DNA of 64,000 nucleotides, taken from the IMG/VR virus record IMGVR_UViG_2675903055_000001, positions 26,476-90,475 of that record; one strand, given 5' to 3'. Position 1 is the first letter of the stretch. Each line of letters starts with the position of its first letter. The translations under genes and the position numbers were made by a program. This DNA comes from a virus (lineage: Duplodnaviria; Caudoviricetes). The notes under the pieces were generated by a model, which worked only from the letters and a program-made list of their open reading frames with translations, was not told where the DNA came from and did not search any database. This document shows, one piece after another, positions 27,820-47,684 of the stretch.

Positions 27820-27893
27820 GGTAGGCGGGTAGGTAGGAACGGGGTAGGCGGCGGGTAGGACGTGGGCTGACCTGCGGTTCCTACCGGGCTACC
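27820..27893. repeat. GGTAG(G) direct repeats (5) and inverted CTACC(GGG) (2)
   Basis: GGTAG at 27820, 27828, 27832, 27843, 27854; CTACC at 27881, 27889. Confidence 0.65.
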
Positions 27894-28611
27894 GGGCCGG
27901 GGGGTGGGGGCTGTTCGGGGTGTGGGGAGCGGGCGCTGGGCCGGGCTGTGGGTGGGGTGTGACGGGGGTGTAGGCGGGGCCCCGGTCGGGGCTGCCGGGC
28001 GGGCCGGGAGCGGGGGTGTCGGGGAGGTGCCCGAGCCCGTCCGGGAGGTCCCGGAGGAGGACCCCTTGGCGGTTGCGCTGACGGCCCCCCGCCGCCTTCA
28101 GGTTGAGTCCTTCGGTGACCGGGATGCCGGCCGCGTCGAGGGCCTGGCGGACGGTCTGTTTCGTGGCTCCGGGGAGGGCGTCGGCGATGGTGTCGAGGTG
28201 GGCGCCGCGCTGCCCGGTGTCGGCGGTGATCTCGCGGATGGCGAGGGCGACGATGTGCGCGGCCGGTGGCACGGCCTCGGCCGGCTGCTCCTCCCCCGGC
28301 TCGTCTTGATCGTTTCGGGGTGTGGGGGCGGGGGCCAGCGTCCATGCGGCGACGCACCAGGCCGCGGTCAGCGGCGTCATCATCGGCGGGTGCTGGTCGA
28401 CCAGGAGCACGATGCCGACCGCGCCCGCGGCTACCCCACCCAGGCGGGTCACGCTGCCCTGGGTGCCGTCGCCTGCGGCGACCCAGGCCGCGCCCCGTTC
28501 GAGCAGGGCGCGGCTGCCGGTGCACAGCGACGTAGCGAGGTGCCGGCCGGGGATGAAGGGGCGGGCGGCCTCCCGCGCTCGGGCCACTGGGCGGGGCTTC
28601 CGGTCGGGCAC
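27889..28611 (-). CDS. Membrane protein with C-terminal winged-helix-like domain and Pro-rich tail
   Basis: Two hydrophobic segments, then GAHLDTIADAL..TVRQALDAAGIPV..RQGV. Confidence 0.7.
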   Translation of the reverse strand: MPDRKPRPVARAREAARPFIPGRHLATSLCTGSRALLERGAAWVAAGDGTQGSVTRLGGVAAGAVGIVLLVDQHPPMMTPLTAAWCVAAWTLAPAPTPRNDQDEPGEEQPAEAVPPAAHIVALAIREITADTGQRGAHLDTIADALPGATKQTVRQALDAAGIPVTEGLNLKAAGGRQRNRQGVLLRDLPDGLGHLPDTPAPGPPGSPDRGPAYTPVTPHPQPGPAPAPHTPNSPHPPAR

Positions 28612-30083: not shown

Positions 30084-31601
30084 TCACTGGGTCTCCTGGG
30101 CGTCGAGGTGGCGGCGGATGGCGGACGCCTTGGACTGGCCGACACCGAGCCCCGACTTGAGGGCGCGGATGCCCGCGGGCTTGCCGTGGGTACGGCGGTG
30201 CTCGGCGTCGAGTACGCGCGCCCGGTCGAGGAGGGCGTCCGTACCTGGGGGTGTACTCGGCGTACTCGGCTCGGGTACGGGCGCGTACTCGGCGGCCGGA
30301 GCCGGGGGCTCGTCGGGGTGCTCCGCCGGTGCGTCGTGGGTGGTGCTCTCGGGGAGCCGGGCGTGTACCTGGGTACGGGTACGGTCCGCGGCGAGTACGG
30401 GCTCCGGGTCCTGTACCTCGGGGTGTACCTCGGTGTCGGGTACGTCGGCGGGTACGGGTGTCTGTGCTGGTGGGGCCGCGGGTACGGCCTGTACCTCGGG
30501 TGCGGGTACGGCCTCGGGTGCGGGCGGTTCGACCGGGTCGGGTACGGCGGGGGTGGCCGTGTCCAGGCGTGGCGGATTGCCCGCCCGGGTGGCCATCCGC
30601 ACCAGCGTCTCGGTGACGGGTACGCCGTACCCGGTGCACAGCGACGCGAGTCCGGCCGGGGTGCGATCCGGGTGCGCGGCGGCCACCCGGCGTACCGCAT
30701 CGAACCGGTCGAGGCGCTTGAGTTCGGCCGTGGTGATGCCGTGCGGGGTACGCAGGTACGGGGCGGGTACAGCCTCGACGGTCCACAGCGACGGCAGGGG
30801 TACGTCCTTCAGCGCGGCGGCACCGCGCCGTGCGGCGAGGAGCTGCATGAGCTGGTGCCGCTGCTGACCGTTGACACCGACCTGCGCGCGGGCAACCGCG
30901 GCGGCGAGCCGCTTCTTCCCCCACGGGCCAAGGCGGTCGCGGGAGGCGAGGCGGACGGCGCGGGCGGTGGCACGGTCGCGGGTGATCTGCTCGGCGTCCC
31001 GGTCCCGGGTCGCGAGCCCCGCGTAGGACAGGACCCGCTCGCGCAACTCGCGTCCGACGACGGCCAGCAGCCCGGAGGCGAGGGCCTGCGGGCGGGCGAT
31101 GCGAATCTCCAGCCCCATGGCGAGGTGCCACAGGATGCCGGCCATGACGGGCCCGATGACGGCGCGGACCGTGCCGCCGACGAGTCCGGACTCGGTGAGG
31201 GCGGGGATGACCTGGACGCCGGTGATGACCCACACGAGGACGCCGGGCGTTCCCGAGGTGCCGGCCGTGGTGTCGGTGGTGGTGGCGCGTTTGTGGGCTC
31301 GGGCGAGGAGCGCGCAGGCGAGGAGCGCGATCTCCCCTGCGGCGAAGAAGAACAGCCGCTCGTTCTGGCTGTGCATGCCGAGCCGGTGCGCGGCGAACCG
31401 CCAGCTCGTGTCCGCGGTGTAGCCGGTGCAGGCGGCGGCGCCGATCGACGCGACGACGACGGACGCGGAGGGCCGGGCGGCGGCTCGCAGGCCGCGGACG
31501 ATGAGCCACCCGGCGAGGACGAGCAGCCCGCAGACACCGACCGCGAGGACCGCAGCCGGGAGCGGGTTGGCCTGTGCCCAGTGGGCGGCGGGTGCGGTCA
31601 T
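30084..31601 (-). CDS. SpdB2/DUF2637-like membrane protein with C-terminal HTH
   Basis: 4-5 N-terminal TM helices, basic middle, Pro/Val/Glu linker, terminal GIRALKSGLGVGQSKASAIR HTH. Confidence 0.65.
   Translation of the reverse strand: MTAPAAHWAQANPLPAAVLAVGVCGLLVLAGWLIVRGLRAAARPSASVVVASIGAAACTGYTADTSWRFAAHRLGMHSQNERLFFFAAGEIALLACALLARAHKRATTTDTTAGTSGTPGVLVWVITGVQVIPALTESGLVGGTVRAVIGPVMAGILWHLAMGLEIRIARPQALASGLLAVVGRELRERVLSYAGLATRDRDAEQITRDRATARAVRLASRDRLGPWGKKRLAAAVARAQVGVNGQQRHQLMQLLAARRGAAALKDVPLPSLWTVEAVPAPYLRTPHGITTAELKRLDRFDAVRRVAAAHPDRTPAGLASLCTGYGVPVTETLVRMATRAGNPPRLDTATPAVPDPVEPPAPEAVPAPEVQAVPAAPPAQTPVPADVPDTEVHPEVQDPEPVLAADRTRTQVHARLPESTTHDAPAEHPDEPPAPAAEYAPVPEPSTPSTPPGTDALLDRARVLDAEHRRTHGKPAGIRALKSGLGVGQSKASAIRRHLDAQETQ
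30188..30805. repeat. In-gene GTAC-core iteron array (26 copies; main unit GGGTACGG)
   Basis: Hand count of 26 GTAC in ~615 bp; none seen in the 5' half of the same gene. Confidence 0.85.
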
Positions 31602-32716: not shown

Positions 32717-32822
32717 GCCCGTGTGCGACCACGGGCCGGGGCTTGACGGTGCCCGGTGTGCGACCACCGGGCACCGTCGGTTTGGTGCGGCCCTGGTTCG
32801 TGTGCGACCACGAACCAGGGCC
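32717..32822 (-). repeat. Three tandem hairpins with identical GTG-TGCGAC-CAC apex but different stems
   Basis: GTGTGCGACCAC at 32721, 32756, 32800; stems of 7, 14 and 14 bp. Confidence 0.9.
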
Positions 32823-32846
32823 TTGTGCATTGGCAGCGTGGGCTGC

Positions 32847-32883
32847 TTGTCACCAATGTATGGGCACCCATACAATTAGGCAA
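32847..32883. promoter_or_regulatory. Overlapping divergent sigma70-type promoters sharing a palindromic operator
   Basis: Plus: TTGTCA(32847)-18-TACAAT(32871). Minus: TTGCCT(32883)-17-TACATT(32860). Operator TGTATGGG-CA-CCCATACA at 32857-74. Confidence 0.85.
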
Positions 32884-32908
32884 GCGGCTCCCGAAGATGA
32901 GGAACGGG

Positions 32909-33220
32909 ATGACCGAAGAACCCATCGACCAGGAGGCGCAGCGTGTGTTCGACGCTCTCGACGAAGTGGAAGCGATGACCGACCCGCTGGCCCGGGCGCG
33001 CGTGATCGGCTTGCTCCTGAAGGACCAAGCGAAGCGCAACAAGAAGTTCCACGAGTACCGGCGGCAGGTCGTCCTCGAACTGCGCGAGCAGAAGGTGCCC
33101 TACCGCAAGATCGCCGAACAGTTGGGCGTGTCACTCGGCACGGTCCAAGACATCGAGCGTGGGGCAGGCCGCTGGACACAACGCCCGAGGAAGGACTCGC
33201 CGCAGGATGCACCCGAGTAG
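32909..33220 (+). CDS. HTH repressor of the spd-like module
   Basis: VPYRKIAEQLGVSLGTVQDIERG HTH; divergent from the operon. Confidence 0.85.
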   Translation: MTEEPIDQEAQRVFDALDEVEAMTDPLARARVIGLLLKDQAKRNKKFHEYRRQVVLELREQKVPYRKIAEQLGVSLGTVQDIERGAGRWTQRPRKDSPQDAPE

Positions 33221-45698: not shown

Positions 45699-46423
45699 GC
45701 GGGCTCCTGGTGGTTGATGGCGTCCATCTGGGCGCGCTGCTCGGGGGTGAGGCGGGCGAGGGCTTCCGCGGCGGCGGTCCGGCGGCGTTCTTCCTCGCGT
45801 GCGGCGGCCGGGTCGGCTACGGGTTCACCAAGGGCGGTTCGCTTCCGGGCGCCGTGGGTTGGTCGACGTTTCCCTCCGGGCCACCGGCAGTGCTGGCCGA
45901 CCCGGGCCTGGCATGCCGGGCACTGCACGCTGAACGGCCGGGGCTTGGCCGCCTCGCGGGCTTCCTCCTCGCCGGGTTCGGCGGGTATCTCCCGGCCGAC
46001 GCCTTCGAGGACGCGCGCCAGGGCTTGGGGCGAGCCGCCTTCGAGCGCGGGCGGGACCGGGTCGGCGGGCCGATGGCCGTCGGCGGTGGCTGCGATCTGT
46101 CCGCGGAGGCGGGCGAGGTAGTTCGGGTCCTCGTCGCCGGGTGGCGGCTCGTACTGGAAGTTCGTGAGGCGGTCGCGGCGGGCTTTGCGGGCGAGGTCGA
46201 TGATGTCGACGGCCGTGGCGCGGAATCGGTCCTCGGGCTTGCGGGAGGCCATCTCCAGGTAGAAGCGGGTGAGGGCGGCCTCGGCGGCGGCGTAGTTGAT
46301 GCGGGCGGCGTTGAGGTCTGCGTGCCAGGCGAGGACGTCGGCGTCGCCGACGGTGCGCTGGTCGCGGGCGGCAGCGAGGCCGAGGAACGTTCCCACTTCC
46401 TTGTAGGTGATCGTTTCGGTCAT
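45695..46423 (-). CDS. Replication accessory protein (helicase loader/inhibitor-like N-terminus, C-terminal zinc finger)
   Basis: DQRTVG..DV.AW..L; CPAC..C..H; directly downstream of initiator. Confidence 0.6.
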   Translation of the reverse strand: MTETITYKEVGTFLGLAAARDQRTVGDADVLAWHADLNAARINYAAAEAALTRFYLEMASRKPEDRFRATAVDIIDLARKARRDRLTNFQYEPPPGDEDPNYLARLRGQIAATADGHRPADPVPPALEGGSPQALARVLEGVGREIPAEPGEEEAREAAKPRPFSVQCPACQARVGQHCRWPGGKRRPTHGARKRTALGEPVADPAAAREEERRRTAAAEALARLTPEQRAQMDAINHQEPA

Positions 46424-47553
46424 CGGTTCTCCTGAGCGCGGGCGGCGTCGGCGGCGGCCTGGAGGCGGCTGCCGACGTCGATGGCCTGCTGCACGCGGGC
46501 GTCAGTGGTGGACGGGCGGTGCTGGTTGGGCAGCGCGATGACGTTGCTGGGGGTGGGTTGACCGCTGGCGAACGGCGCGGCCAGTGGCGGCTGGTCGGGT
46601 TCGTCGTCGTAGGCGCCGCGACGGAGCCAGGTGGCGGGGTACGGCGTGTACCGGGGGTCCTCAGTCGCGCGTTCGTGGGCGTATGCCTTGGCAGCCTGGA
46701 CGATGTGTTCGGGGGTGGCGCCGCGGTCGATGGCGGCTATCCACTCCTTGCGGGCGTCTTCGCGGTTGCGCTTGCGGGGGTAGACGAGCCAGAACGCGCC
46801 GAAGGCTTCGAGTTGGTAGTCGCGCTGGGGGGCGGCGTTGCCGCTGCTGTCGAGGGCGAGTGGACCGGTGAGGGAATCATCTGCGCGAAGCGCAGGAGTA
46901 TTTGTTTCTTCTCCCGTATTCGTCTTCCCGTATTCGTTCTTAGACGTACCACCGTGTGGCACGTCGGAGTGACCTGGGGTTTTGCTTGTTTGCGCAGGTC
47001 CGGCCGGGATGCCACAGGCTGGTACGTCGGTGCGACCTGCGGTGTTGGGGGTTTGTGCAGGTGACTCCGACGTGCCACCACCTGGTACGTCGGAGTGGGC
47101 TTCCGGCGTACCGCCATGTGGTACGTCGGCCCCACCTGCGCCATTGCGCGTTCCCCCAGTTCGGTCCGACGTACCACCATGTGGTACGTCGGTGTGACCT
47201 GCGGGCTTCGGGGTTTCCCCTGCTCGCGCCGACGTACCACCGTGTGGCACGTCGGTGAGGGTGAGGATCGTGGTGTGCTGGCCACCGGGGAGTACCTCTC
47301 GACTCGGCGTGAGGTAGCCGTGTTCCTTCAGTTCGGCGAAGGCTGCGCGGAACTGGCGGCGGCCGGGGCCCGCCTTGCCGTGGCGTTCGTTTGAGGCGCG
47401 CCACAGCGAGTCGGCGGTGGTGTCCCAGCCGTCGGGGCGGCTGAGGAGTTCGACAAGGATGCCGCGGGCCATATGGCTTAGGCGGTCGTCGCGCACGGTG
47501 GCGTTGGGGACTTGGAGGAAGTCCCTCGTTGGCCTGGAGTGCCGGATCCTCAC
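46420..47553 (-). CDS. Replication initiator (lambda O-like)
   Basis: N-terminal wHTH (LSHMARGIL..LLS.P.GW), central repeats, FGAFWLVYPRK..YTPYPATWL. Confidence 0.85.
   Translation of the reverse strand: MRIRHSRPTRDFLQVPNATVRDDRLSHMARGILVELLSRPDGWDTTADSLWRASNERHGKAGPGRRQFRAAFAELKEHGYLTPSREVLPGGQHTTILTLTDVPHGGTSARAGETPKPAGHTDVPHGGTSDRTGGTRNGAGGADVPHGGTPEAHSDVPGGGTSESPAQTPNTAGRTDVPACGIPAGPAQTSKTPGHSDVPHGGTSKNEYGKTNTGEETNTPALRADDSLTGPLALDSSGNAAPQRDYQLEAFGAFWLVYPRKRNREDARKEWIAAIDRGATPEHIVQAAKAYAHERATEDPRYTPYPATWLRRGAYDDEPDQPPLAAPFASGQPTPSNVIALPNQHRPSTTDARVQQAIDVGSRLQAAADAARAQENR
46943..47255. repeat. Six palindromic iterons CCGACGTRCCA-N5-TGGYACGTCGG (probable ori)
   Basis: Copies at ~46943, 47006 (degenerate), 47067, 47103, 47166, 47229; read as DVPHGGT repeats in the protein. 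Confidence 0.85.
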
Positions 47554-47684
47554 GCTTGCTCTTCTCTCGTTCGCACTGATCAGGACGTGGCTGTGAAACC
47601 CCCTGGTCAGGGCGGCTCACGGATATCCGTGGGGTCACTAGTGTACACTTGGGTACGCGAAGGTACCACGGTTACTATGTGCGT

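What the first reader, a model, noticed from the sequence alone, without database searches (positions are those of the whole stretch)
30188..30805. 26 GTAC-core repeats written into the 3' half of the membrane-HTH gene
Seen: 26 GTAC tetramers in ~615 bp, where roughly 1-2 are expected at this GC level (estimated by eye); none were seen in the 5' half of the gene. Main units are GGGTACGG (~10 copies, one inverted at 30625) and TGTAC(C)TCGG. The array forces repeated use of the normally rare Val codon GTA (VP, EV, VL), so selection appears to act on the DNA rather than on the low-complexity linker. Inference: a cis-acting binding array (clt/parS-like) for the gene's own C-terminal HTH, giving a one-gene membrane-anchor plus DNA-site system.
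Basis: partly seen in the sequence, partly recalled or inferred. Interest (0 to 1): 0.8.

Follow-up and report, generated by a model that had tools for sequence, protein, structure and literature searches.

The report
DNA-site array inside membrane-tether gene
A Streptomyces prophage gene for a membrane protein has about 26 copies of a short DNA word written into its own coding sequence; this word is most likely the docking site for the protein's own FtsK-gamma-like DNA-reading tail, which would tie the mobile element's DNA to the cell membrane.

Summary
There are 26 GTAC in 30188-30805, against 1.7-1.8 expected. This is the densest GTAC cluster in the 7.2-Mb genome, and none lies in the 5' part of the gene. 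The sites fall in all three reading frames and use 26 of the 30 places that synonymous codon choice allows (3.0 expected). Unusual codons are confined to the codons that build GTAC, so selection acts on the DNA. The oriented word is GTACC[C/T][G/C], in long form CCGTACCCG on the coding strand.

The gene (30084-31601, minus strand, 505 aa) lies in a tailed prophage. It encodes four membrane helices, a small helical domain, a disordered linker and a C-terminal three-helix domain whose best sequence matches are FtsK gamma domains. No TraB/FtsK motor or relaxase is nearby.

In 90 homologous loci the same gene region carries arrays of other words (CGGGGACCG, GGACCGAG, GCGGACCA, GGTCACC, GATGCGCA, GGCACAC). 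Each word is tied to one type of C-terminal domain. In one case array and domain were exchanged together as a cassette, while neighbouring genes differ between contexts.

Best reading (about 0.6): a one-gene module in which a motor-less membrane anchor reads a clt/KOPS-like array in its own gene. Binding has not been shown.

The scan had noted this stretch before, and clt-like arrays beside phage-borne TraB on other DNA.

The parts
30084..31601 (-). CDS of the 505-aa membrane protein (P0001). The start is taken at the Met that homologues share; the open frame runs up to 31760.
   Evidence: ORF list. Homologues are 470-560 aa long and align from this Met. GC3 is 0.93 in the 5' part.
31119..31565 (-). 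N-terminal membrane domain, four long helices (aa 13-161). It is followed by a helical region, aa 171-257, that is the most conserved part of the family.
   Evidence: AlphaFold2 model. It is 44-76% identical across 90 loci. tblastn finds matches on actinobacterial plasmids. Atlas neighbours partly carry DUF2637 and HTH_SpdB_C.
30588..30746 (-). Middle four-helix domain (aa 286-338). Its function is unknown. Its coding DNA carries GTAC sites too.
   Evidence: pLDDT 93-97. Conserved within the H1 class. No match in PDB sequences.
30246..30584 (-). Disordered Pro/Ala/Val-rich linker (aa 340-452). It carries the core of the array.
   Evidence: pLDDT below 50. GTAC positions were mapped on the protein.
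30090..30242 (-). C-terminal three-helix HTH (aa 454-504). It is FtsK-gamma-like but lacks the wing.
   Evidence: pLDDT 95-97 and 85 for the domain alone. The six best PDB sequence hits of the profile are all FtsK gamma (E 0.009-0.27). Structural alignment to 5dcf gives Z 6.2 at 29% identity and to 2ve8 Z 5.8 at 27% identity. hhalign places it in the same register as the host's own FtsK gamma.
30188..30805 (.). Array of 26 GTAC-core sites. About 10 are CCGTACCCG-type on the coding (-) strand and about 8 are GTACCT(C/G)G or GTACTCGG-type on the + strand. Spacing is irregular, 6-80 bp.
32756..33220 (+). Context only: a divergent HTH regulator at the head of the leftward membrane-protein operon that contains the gene.
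   Evidence: Pfam HTH_23 at 1.4e-6. A homologue sits in the same position next to the GTAC-class copy in another prophage, L098.

Best explanation
The 615-bp stretch is a cluster of cognate binding sites, about 26 copies of GTACC[C/T][G/C] (long form CCGTACCCG). They are superimposed by synonymous and near-neutral codon choice on the 3' part of a prophage gene.

The gene product is anchored in the membrane by four N-terminal helices. A disordered linker of about 110 residues connects these to a small C-terminal FtsK-gamma-like helix-turn-helix. I infer that this domain reads the array. Several (probably oligomeric) copies of the protein would then tie this piece of the element's DNA to the membrane. 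The arrangement resembles TraB on clt or FtsK on KOPS, but without a translocase motor.

Because reader and sites lie in one gene, specificity can change and move as one cassette.

What is shown and what is inferred:
- Shown: DNA-level selection, family-wide arrays, the pairing of word and domain, the cassette swap, and the absence of a nearby motor.
- Inferred: binding by the protein's own domain, oligomeric tethering, cis capture, and the biological role (positioning DNA for spread, transfer or inheritance in hyphae).
For: DNA-level selection:
- 26 GTAC against 3.0 expected for this protein, out of 30 possible; they fall in all three frames, and odd codons occur only where they build GTAC.

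The same holds in relatives:
- GGGGACC 32 against 3.0, GGACCGA 29 against 3.0, CGGACCA 24 against 6.0, TGCGCA 9 against 0.7, GGCACAC 8 against 0.7, each in three frames.

One word per C-terminal domain type across 90 loci:
- Within one type, GGRN goes with CGGGGACCG and GVGN with CSRGGACCGAG.
- The GGCACAC word goes with the same domain on a plasmid and on a chromosome.
- Array-bearing genes that seem to lack the domain have it just downstream in another frame.

Cassette swap:
- L036 sits inside the GGGGACCG clade (100/99 support). It is 89% identical to L049 up to about codon 324, unrelated over array plus domain, and similar again directly after the stop codon.

Neighbours differ between contexts: prophage, MobC/relaxase element and T4SS-type plasmid.

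No alternative reader is evident:
- No FtsK/TraB domain lies in the window's contig or within 20 kb of copies in five other genomes.
- The word is not enriched genome-wide, and there is no second array of it.
- The host's TraB-like genes have other repeats.

The C-terminal domain resembles FtsK gamma, a reader of 8-bp words.

Precedents: TraB reads 8-bp clt repeats with its C-terminal wHTH (PMC4447253, PMC3583192). SpdA2 binds a site inside its own coding region (PMC4170104).
Against: - No binding data exist.
- Array and domain are adjacent on the DNA, so their pairing and joint swap could partly reflect linkage rather than recognition.
- L008 (GTAC word) and L011 (GGATGC word) have almost the same third helix. 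The specificity code is therefore unclear; a Lys/Gln difference in helix 2 is the only obvious correlate.
- The domain lacks the wing that FtsK gamma uses. Its FtsK-gamma similarity is marginal (E about 0.01; Z about 6, tied with other winged helices; Pfam FtsK_gamma is not reached for the window protein).
- Some homologues with a C-terminal HTH have no array (H7 class, L010).
- In L103 further sites lie 800 bp downstream of the gene.
- The other classes use unrelated C-terminal domains.
Confidence: 0.6

Rival explanations
1. The array is a clt-like docking site read in trans by a TraB/FtsK-type DNA pump, either the host's own or that of a co-resident conjugative element. The prophage could then be mobilised between hyphae, and the membrane protein would be only a Spd-like helper.
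For: clt loci are arrays of 7-9-bp direct repeats (PMC4447253, PMC3583192). Some words in this family resemble published clt repeats: pJV1 CCGCACA[CG][CG] against GGCACAC, and pWTY27 CCCGCCC (PMC3583192). The gene sits in a spread-like membrane operon. Earlier notes of this scan report phage-borne TraB with such arrays on other DNA.
Against: No FtsK/TraB domain lies in the window's contig or within 20 kb of copies in five other genomes. The two TraB-like genes of this genome have different local repeats. There is no second GGGTACGG array in the genome. The word is not enriched or skewed genome-wide. The word changes with the gene's own C-terminal domain.
Confidence: 0.13
2. Another phage-encoded DNA-binding protein reads the array. 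Candidates are the replication initiator, whose origin repeats share CGTACC (a titration or handcuffing site), a small terminase (a pac-like site), or the second membrane-wHTH protein of the operon.
For: Origin-like 27-bp palindromes at 46940-47260 have half-sites CCGACGT(A/G)CCAC, and GGTACGTCGG occurs once in the array. In another GTAC-class prophage the gene lies about 4 kb from the large terminase. A second TM+wHTH gene lies at 27889-28611.
Against: The same architecture occurs next to relaxases and on plasmids that have none of these phage genes. No homologue of the window's initiator and no second cluster of the word turned up in 20-kb contexts of relatives. The origin repeats tolerate G in place of the A of GTAC, whereas the array does not. 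In the window the terminase lies 18 kb away.
Confidence: 0.12
3. There is no DNA-binding function. The pattern would be a by-product of peptide repeats or tandem duplication, or a cluster of rare codons that slows translation of a membrane protein.
For: Other GTAC clusters in this genome are simple Tyr-rich protein repeats. In relatives, part of the array grew by 45-bp tandem duplication.
Against: The window's array is not tandem, its sites lie in three frames, and 26 of 30 possible sites are used. Codons that do not touch GTAC have normal GC3 (0.905). Every GTA is followed by C. The words differ between relatives but are equally enriched.
Confidence: 0.03
4. The cluster is tied to restriction, methylation or base modification of a short palindrome (GTAC; TGCGCA, GGWCC and GGTNACC in relatives). 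It would serve, for example, as a modification-sensing or decoy region.
For: Several cores are palindromic and look like restriction sites. The prophage encodes a DpdA-like base-exchange enzyme and a PglX-like fragment.
Against: Information extends asymmetrically beyond the palindromes (GTACC[CT][GC], CGGGGACCG, GGATGCGCA) with a strong orientation bias. GGCACAC and CGGACCA are not palindromic. The word tracks the C-terminal domain, not any modification gene.
Confidence: 0.03

Closest known systems
TraB with its clt locus (TRS repeats) of Streptomyces conjugative plasmids (pSVH1, pJV1, pWTY27)
   Same: A membrane-anchored protein of a Streptomyces mobile element reads an element-specific array of 7-9-bp repeats with a C-terminal (winged) HTH. 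Words differ between elements.
   Different: There is no FtsK/SpoIIIE motor domain in the protein or nearby. The array is far larger (26 sites against 4-9) and lies wholly inside coding sequence. The setting is a tailed prophage. Transfer has not been shown.
FtsK gamma domain on KOPS (2VE9) and SpoIIIE gamma on SRS
   Same: These are the best sequence matches of the C-terminal domain, in the same helix1-helix2-turn-helix3 register, with 27-29% identity in structural alignment. They read asymmetric 8-bp words.
   Different: The similarity is below family thresholds. The wing is missing. KOPS are spread over a chromosome and orient a motor, whereas here the sites are packed into 615 bp and the word is not enriched in the genome.
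SpdA2 and its sps site of pIJ101 (PMC4170104)
   Same: A DNA-binding protein of a Streptomyces mobile element whose specific site lies inside its own coding region. It has a mild role in stable inheritance.
   Different: SpdA2 is a small soluble protein. sps is a 12-bp palindrome present 1-3 times and conserved between plasmids, not a class-specific array of tens of sites.
SpdB/SpdB2 spread proteins (DUF2637) of Streptomyces plasmids
   Same: A multi-helix membrane protein in a repressor-controlled operon of small membrane proteins. SpdB2 is oligomeric and binds dsDNA (PMC4447253). Atlas neighbours of the query carry DUF2637 and 'HTH_SpdB_C'.
   Different: The DUF2637 model does not reach the protein. 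There is no BLASTP similarity to pIJ101 SpdB. To my knowledge SpdB2 binding is not sequence-specific, and no cognate array has been described for it.
Noc on NBS sites in Bacillus subtilis (recalled from my own knowledge)
   Same: A site-specific DNA-binding protein that recruits DNA to the membrane through many sites.
   Different: Noc is a ParB-family protein with an amphipathic helix, and its sites are scattered over the chromosome. It is unrelated in sequence. This is an analogy only.

Membership tests
FtsK gamma domain (Pfam PF09397) | Sequence match to the family model or to solved gamma domains | tested here: inconclusive
   Pfam gives no hit for the window protein. A profile of the domain has FtsK gamma as its six best PDB hits, but only at E 0.009-0.27. 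A relative reaches PF09397 only at E 0.053. hhalign against the host FtsK gamma gives E 0.003 at low probability.
FtsK gamma domain (Pfam PF09397) | Three-helix winged-helix fold | tested here: inconclusive
   The three helices are modelled with confidence. 5dcf gives Z 6.2 and 2ve8 Z 5.8, tied with other winged helices but with much higher identity, 27-29%. The protein ends 7 residues after helix 3, so there is no wing.
FtsK gamma domain (Pfam PF09397) | Sits at the C-terminus of an FtsK/SpoIIIE/TraB translocase | tested here: not met
   There is no FtsK_SpoIIIE domain in the protein or the contig. The 150 best bearers of the domain are 40-546 aa long with the domain at the C-terminus; I saw no translocase-sized protein among them.
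FtsK gamma domain (Pfam PF09397) | Binds an asymmetric 8-bp word | not testable with these tools
   A matching candidate word exists (CCGTACCC, 9 exact copies). Binding needs EMSA or ChIP.
[quoted passage not shown] | Cluster of short direct repeats specific to the element | tested here: met
   The words are class-specific in relatives.
[quoted passage not shown] | Partnered with a traB/tra translocase gene of the same element | tested here: not met
[quoted passage not shown] | Required in cis for conjugal transfer | not testable with these tools
   This needs mating assays.
SpdB / DUF2637 (Pfam PF10935) | Match to the family model | tested here: not met
   No Pfam hit. The six-frame DUF2637 search of the genome finds 7 places, none in this contig. 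Weak leads only: 10-15% of neighbouring clusters; E 0.06 in one relative.
parS/ParB-type centromere | Palindromic sites of about 16 bp | tested here: not met
   The sites are asymmetric 7-9-mers with irregular spacing. I did not search for ParA or ParB genes.

The most novel reading that the evidence does not exclude
A widespread, undescribed class of one-gene 'self-addressed' DNA-membrane tethers in Streptomyces mobile elements (prophages, relaxase-bearing elements, plasmids). Each has a motor-less membrane anchor that ends in a small DNA reader (FtsK-gamma-like in this class), and its cognate clt/KOPS-like array is encoded within its own linker. Array plus reader are exchanged as a specificity cassette. 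The tether would place the element's DNA at the membrane for spread, transfer or inheritance in hyphae.
Probability: 0.45. Interest if true: 0.85.

Novelty: new variant of a known kind. Interest (0 to 1): 0.72.

Why it matters
Streptomyces elements are known to move double-stranded DNA with TraB, which docks on clt repeats. How the accompanying Spd-type membrane proteins handle DNA is an open question.

This family offers a concrete, testable case. It is a membrane protein without a motor that seems to carry both a sequence-specific reader and a large array of its sites in one gene. About a quarter of the sampled Streptomyces genomes have it (81 of 301), and it occurs in phages as well as in transfer elements.

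It is also an unusually clear example of a coding sequence pushed nearly to the synonymous limit to hold a second, DNA-level message. It further provides natural pairs of reader and word (at least six classes) for studying how small HTH domains change specificity.

Tried and rejected
Family and fold searches that gave nothing useful:
- Pfam, NCBIfam and PHROGs on the whole protein and on its three parts: no family.
- tblastn against isolated phages: no match. megablast against plasmids: no match.
- BLASTP against pIJ101 SpdB: nothing.
- Foldseek on the whole model: only meaningless helical hits. Foldseek on the domain alone: only generic HTH hits, none significant.
- Middle domain against PDB sequences: nothing.
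- Rfam over 29.5-32 kb: nothing.

Ideas tested and rejected:
- A TraB/clt module. No FtsK-type domain lies in the contig or near five other copies, and no relaxase lies in the contig.
- A host KOPS-like word. GGGTACGG occurs 615 times in the genome against about 620 expected.
- A match to the resident TraB-like genes' repeats. Their top 8-mers are different.
- A general rare-codon cluster, rejected by GC3.
- A Tyr-repeat explanation. It holds for the other GTAC clusters but not for this one.

Searches with limited yield:
- A second cluster of the word near replication genes of related prophages: none found.
- The search for related loci with a single sequence returned only one locus; loci were then taken from the genome search.
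- Literature searches for DUF2637 and for such arrays found no description.

Full report
**Observation.** The window has 70% G+C and holds 210 GTAC in 64 kb. Of these, 26 lie between 30190 and 30803, where 1.7-1.8 are expected, and none lies in the rest of the gene. In the whole 7.18-Mb genome this is the densest GTAC cluster. The runner-up has 19 sites in 570 bp and, like other clusters, is a Tyr-rich peptide repeat with every site in one frame. Exact GGGTACGG occurs eight times on the + strand and once inverted at 30625. TGTACCTCGG occurs three times and GTACTCGG three times. The repeats are irregularly spaced and not tandem.

**The gene.** The array lies in a minus-strand gene, 30084-31601, of 505 aa counted from the Met that homologues share. 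The window is a tailed prophage. It has a large terminase, portal, scaffold and major head genes at 6-12 kb, and a DpdA-like gene, a replication initiator and an exonuclease at 43-57 kb. The gene belongs to a leftward operon of small membrane proteins that faces a divergent HTH regulator.

**Selection is on the DNA.**
- In the coding frame, 16 sites are GTA|C, 7 are xGT|ACx (CGT ACC, AGT ACG, AGT ACA, GGT ACG) and 3 are xxG|TAC.
- GTA makes up 16 of 22 Val codons in the 3' part and 0 of 25 in the 5' part. In other phage genes it is 13 of 305 Val codons.
- Resampling synonymous codons with phage usage gives 3.0 +/- 1.5 GTAC, with a maximum of 11 in 20,000 trials. The largest number any synonymous version of this protein could hold is 30, and 26 are present.
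- Codons that do not touch a GTAC have normal GC3 (0.905, against 0.93 in the 5' part), while those that touch one have 0.54. This rules out a general rare-codon stretch.
- When each site is oriented, 22 of 26 read GTACC on one strand and the rest read GTACTCG. The word is therefore the asymmetric GTACC[C/T][G/C]. The long form CCGTACCCG lies mostly on the coding strand, and GTACCT(C/G)G or GTACTCGG lie on the other strand.

**The protein.** AlphaFold2, run with 52 homologues, gives the following:
- four long membrane helices (aa 13-161);
- a helical region (aa 171-257);
- a confident four-helix domain (aa 286-338);
- a disordered linker (aa 340-452);
- a confident three-helix C-terminal domain (aa 454-504).

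No Pfam, NCBIfam or PHROG family is reached.

A profile of the last 58 residues of this class has FtsK gamma domains as its six best hits among all PDB sequences: 2j5p, 2j5o, 2ve8/2ve9, 5dcf, 2ius and 2iut, at E 0.009-0.27. The alignment runs through helix 1, helix 2, the turn and helix 3. A model of the domain alone aligns to 5dcf (Z 6.2, 1.8 A, 29% identity) and to 2ve8 (Z 5.8, 27% identity). The Z scores are tied with other winged helices, but the identity is two to three times higher. hhalign places the domain in the same register on the host's own FtsK gamma.

The protein stops seven residues after helix 3, so the wing is missing. The domain defines its own family of at least 484 clusters. 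In the 150 best hits it is always C-terminal, on proteins of 40-546 aa. I therefore call it FtsK-gamma-like, not a member of that family.

**Relatives.**
- More than 1,300 homologues exist, and 81 of 301 sampled Streptomyces genomes have at least one.
- I read 90 loci. The 5' membrane part is 44-76% identical throughout. The 3' part carries arrays, but of different words: CCGTACCC(G), (G/C)CTACCCG, CGGGGACCG, GGACCGAG, GCGGACCA, GGTCACC, GATGCGCA, GGCACAC and, more weakly, CTGCCCG. One subgroup has none.
- In each strong class the copies lie in all three frames and exceed the synonymous expectation about tenfold. Some arrays also grew by 45-bp tandem duplication.

**Covariation.** Each word goes with one type of C-terminal domain.
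- Within one type, the change GGRN to GVGN at the start of the last helix goes with loss of the two 5' G (0.95 and 0.92 down to 0.54 and 0.44) and gain of a 3' A (0.43 up to 0.76) in the site matrix.
- The GGCACAC word occurs with the same domain type on a plasmid and in a chromosome.
- Five array-bearing genes that seemed to lack the domain have it just downstream in another frame, that is, they are frameshifted.
- On a tree of the membrane part, L036 (its own domain, GCGGACCA word) nests inside the GGGGACCG clade with 100/99 support. The two GATGC-type genes fall in two places within the GTAC group.
- At the DNA level L036 is 89% identical to L049 through the upstream region and the first 324 codons or so. 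It has no similarity over the 870 bp of array plus domain, and similarity resumes directly after the stop codon. Array and reader were thus exchanged as one cassette.

**Context.**
- The gene's neighbours are not conserved between contexts. A second GTAC-class copy lies in another prophage with a similar repressor and membrane operon, 4 kb from its terminase.
- GGGGACCG-type and CTGCCCG-type copies sit beside MobC and a MobA/VirD2 relaxase, downstream of WhiB-like and initiator genes. One copy lies on a T4SS-type plasmid.
- No FtsK/TraB domain lies in the window's contig or within 20 kb of copies in five genomes, and no relaxase lies in the contig.
- The word is at chance frequency in the genome. 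The two TraB-like genes of the strain have other local repeats.

**Interpretation.** The array is best read as the cognate site cluster of the protein's own C-terminal reader. That makes a membrane tether for the element's DNA, related in logic to two known systems:
- TraB on clt, where 8-bp repeats are read by a C-terminal wHTH (PMC4447253, PMC3583192);
- SpdA2 on sps, where the site lies inside the protein's own gene (PMC4170104).

Oligomers with long flexible linkers could reach many sites at once. Both of these points are inference.

**Weak points.**
- There are no binding data.
- Physical linkage could produce part of the covariation.
- Two genes with nearly the same third helix carry different words.
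- The wing is missing.
- Some homologues lack arrays.
- In one locus, extra sites lie downstream of the gene.
- The other classes have unrelated C-terminal domains, with weak EF-hand-like and Arc-like matches. What the family shares is therefore the architecture, not one reader fold.

**Rivals.** Four alternatives are kept at low odds, as detailed in the Rival explanations section: reading in trans by a TraB/FtsK pump; reading by another phage protein (the origin repeats at 46940-47260 share CGTACC); a protein-level or translational by-product; and a restriction or modification role.

**Novelty.** I found no description of this family or of such arrays in the searchable literature. Earlier notes of this scan reported clt-like arrays next to phage-borne TraB genes on other DNA. 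The present case differs in having no motor and in tying the array to the membrane protein's own tail. I rate it a new variant of a known kind.

Noticed in passing
window 46940-47260: Inside the replication-initiator gene (46420-47616, minus strand) lie five or six 27-bp palindromes, CCGACGT(A/G)CCACC-N-TGTGG(T/C)ACGTCGG, about 63 bp apart. This looks like a lambda-O-style origin with iterons inside the initiator gene. The half-site shares CGTACC with the array word.
   Followed up: partly
window 47640-47670: Three GTAC at 10-bp spacing (GTACACTTGGGTACGCGAAGGTACC) lie in the gap just upstream of the initiator gene. They may form an operator or promoter element.
   Followed up: no
L103 11800-12200 (G155:C19, locus of L009): A second cluster of that gene's word (GGATGCG, about 10 copies) lies 800 bp downstream of the homologous gene, so arrays are not always confined to the gene.
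   Followed up: no
L057, L052, L018, L027, L031, L045, L090: In the GGGGACCG/GGACCGAG classes the array grew by 45-bp tandem repeats (15-aa units, each with two sites). Five array-bearing genes are frameshifted, so the C-terminal domain lies in another frame. This is either slippage-prone DNA or assembly error.
   Followed up: partly
own genome G000:C24:67183-69316: A true DUF2637 protein with a C-terminal HTH lies directly upstream of a relaxase gene, in the same position as this family in other elements, but has no word array.
   Followed up: partly
own genome G000:C12:179302-179443: About nine copies of GGTACTGAC at 10-bp spacing lie in what looks like non-coding DNA. This is an unrelated short-repeat array.
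   Followed up: no
alignment A3 (C-terminal domains of the GGGGACCG class): The conserved stretch LERDGNEAVTRVQLREIL resembles a degenerate EF-hand loop. Calmodulins are the best PDB sequence hits, at E 7e-4 and weaker.
   Followed up: no
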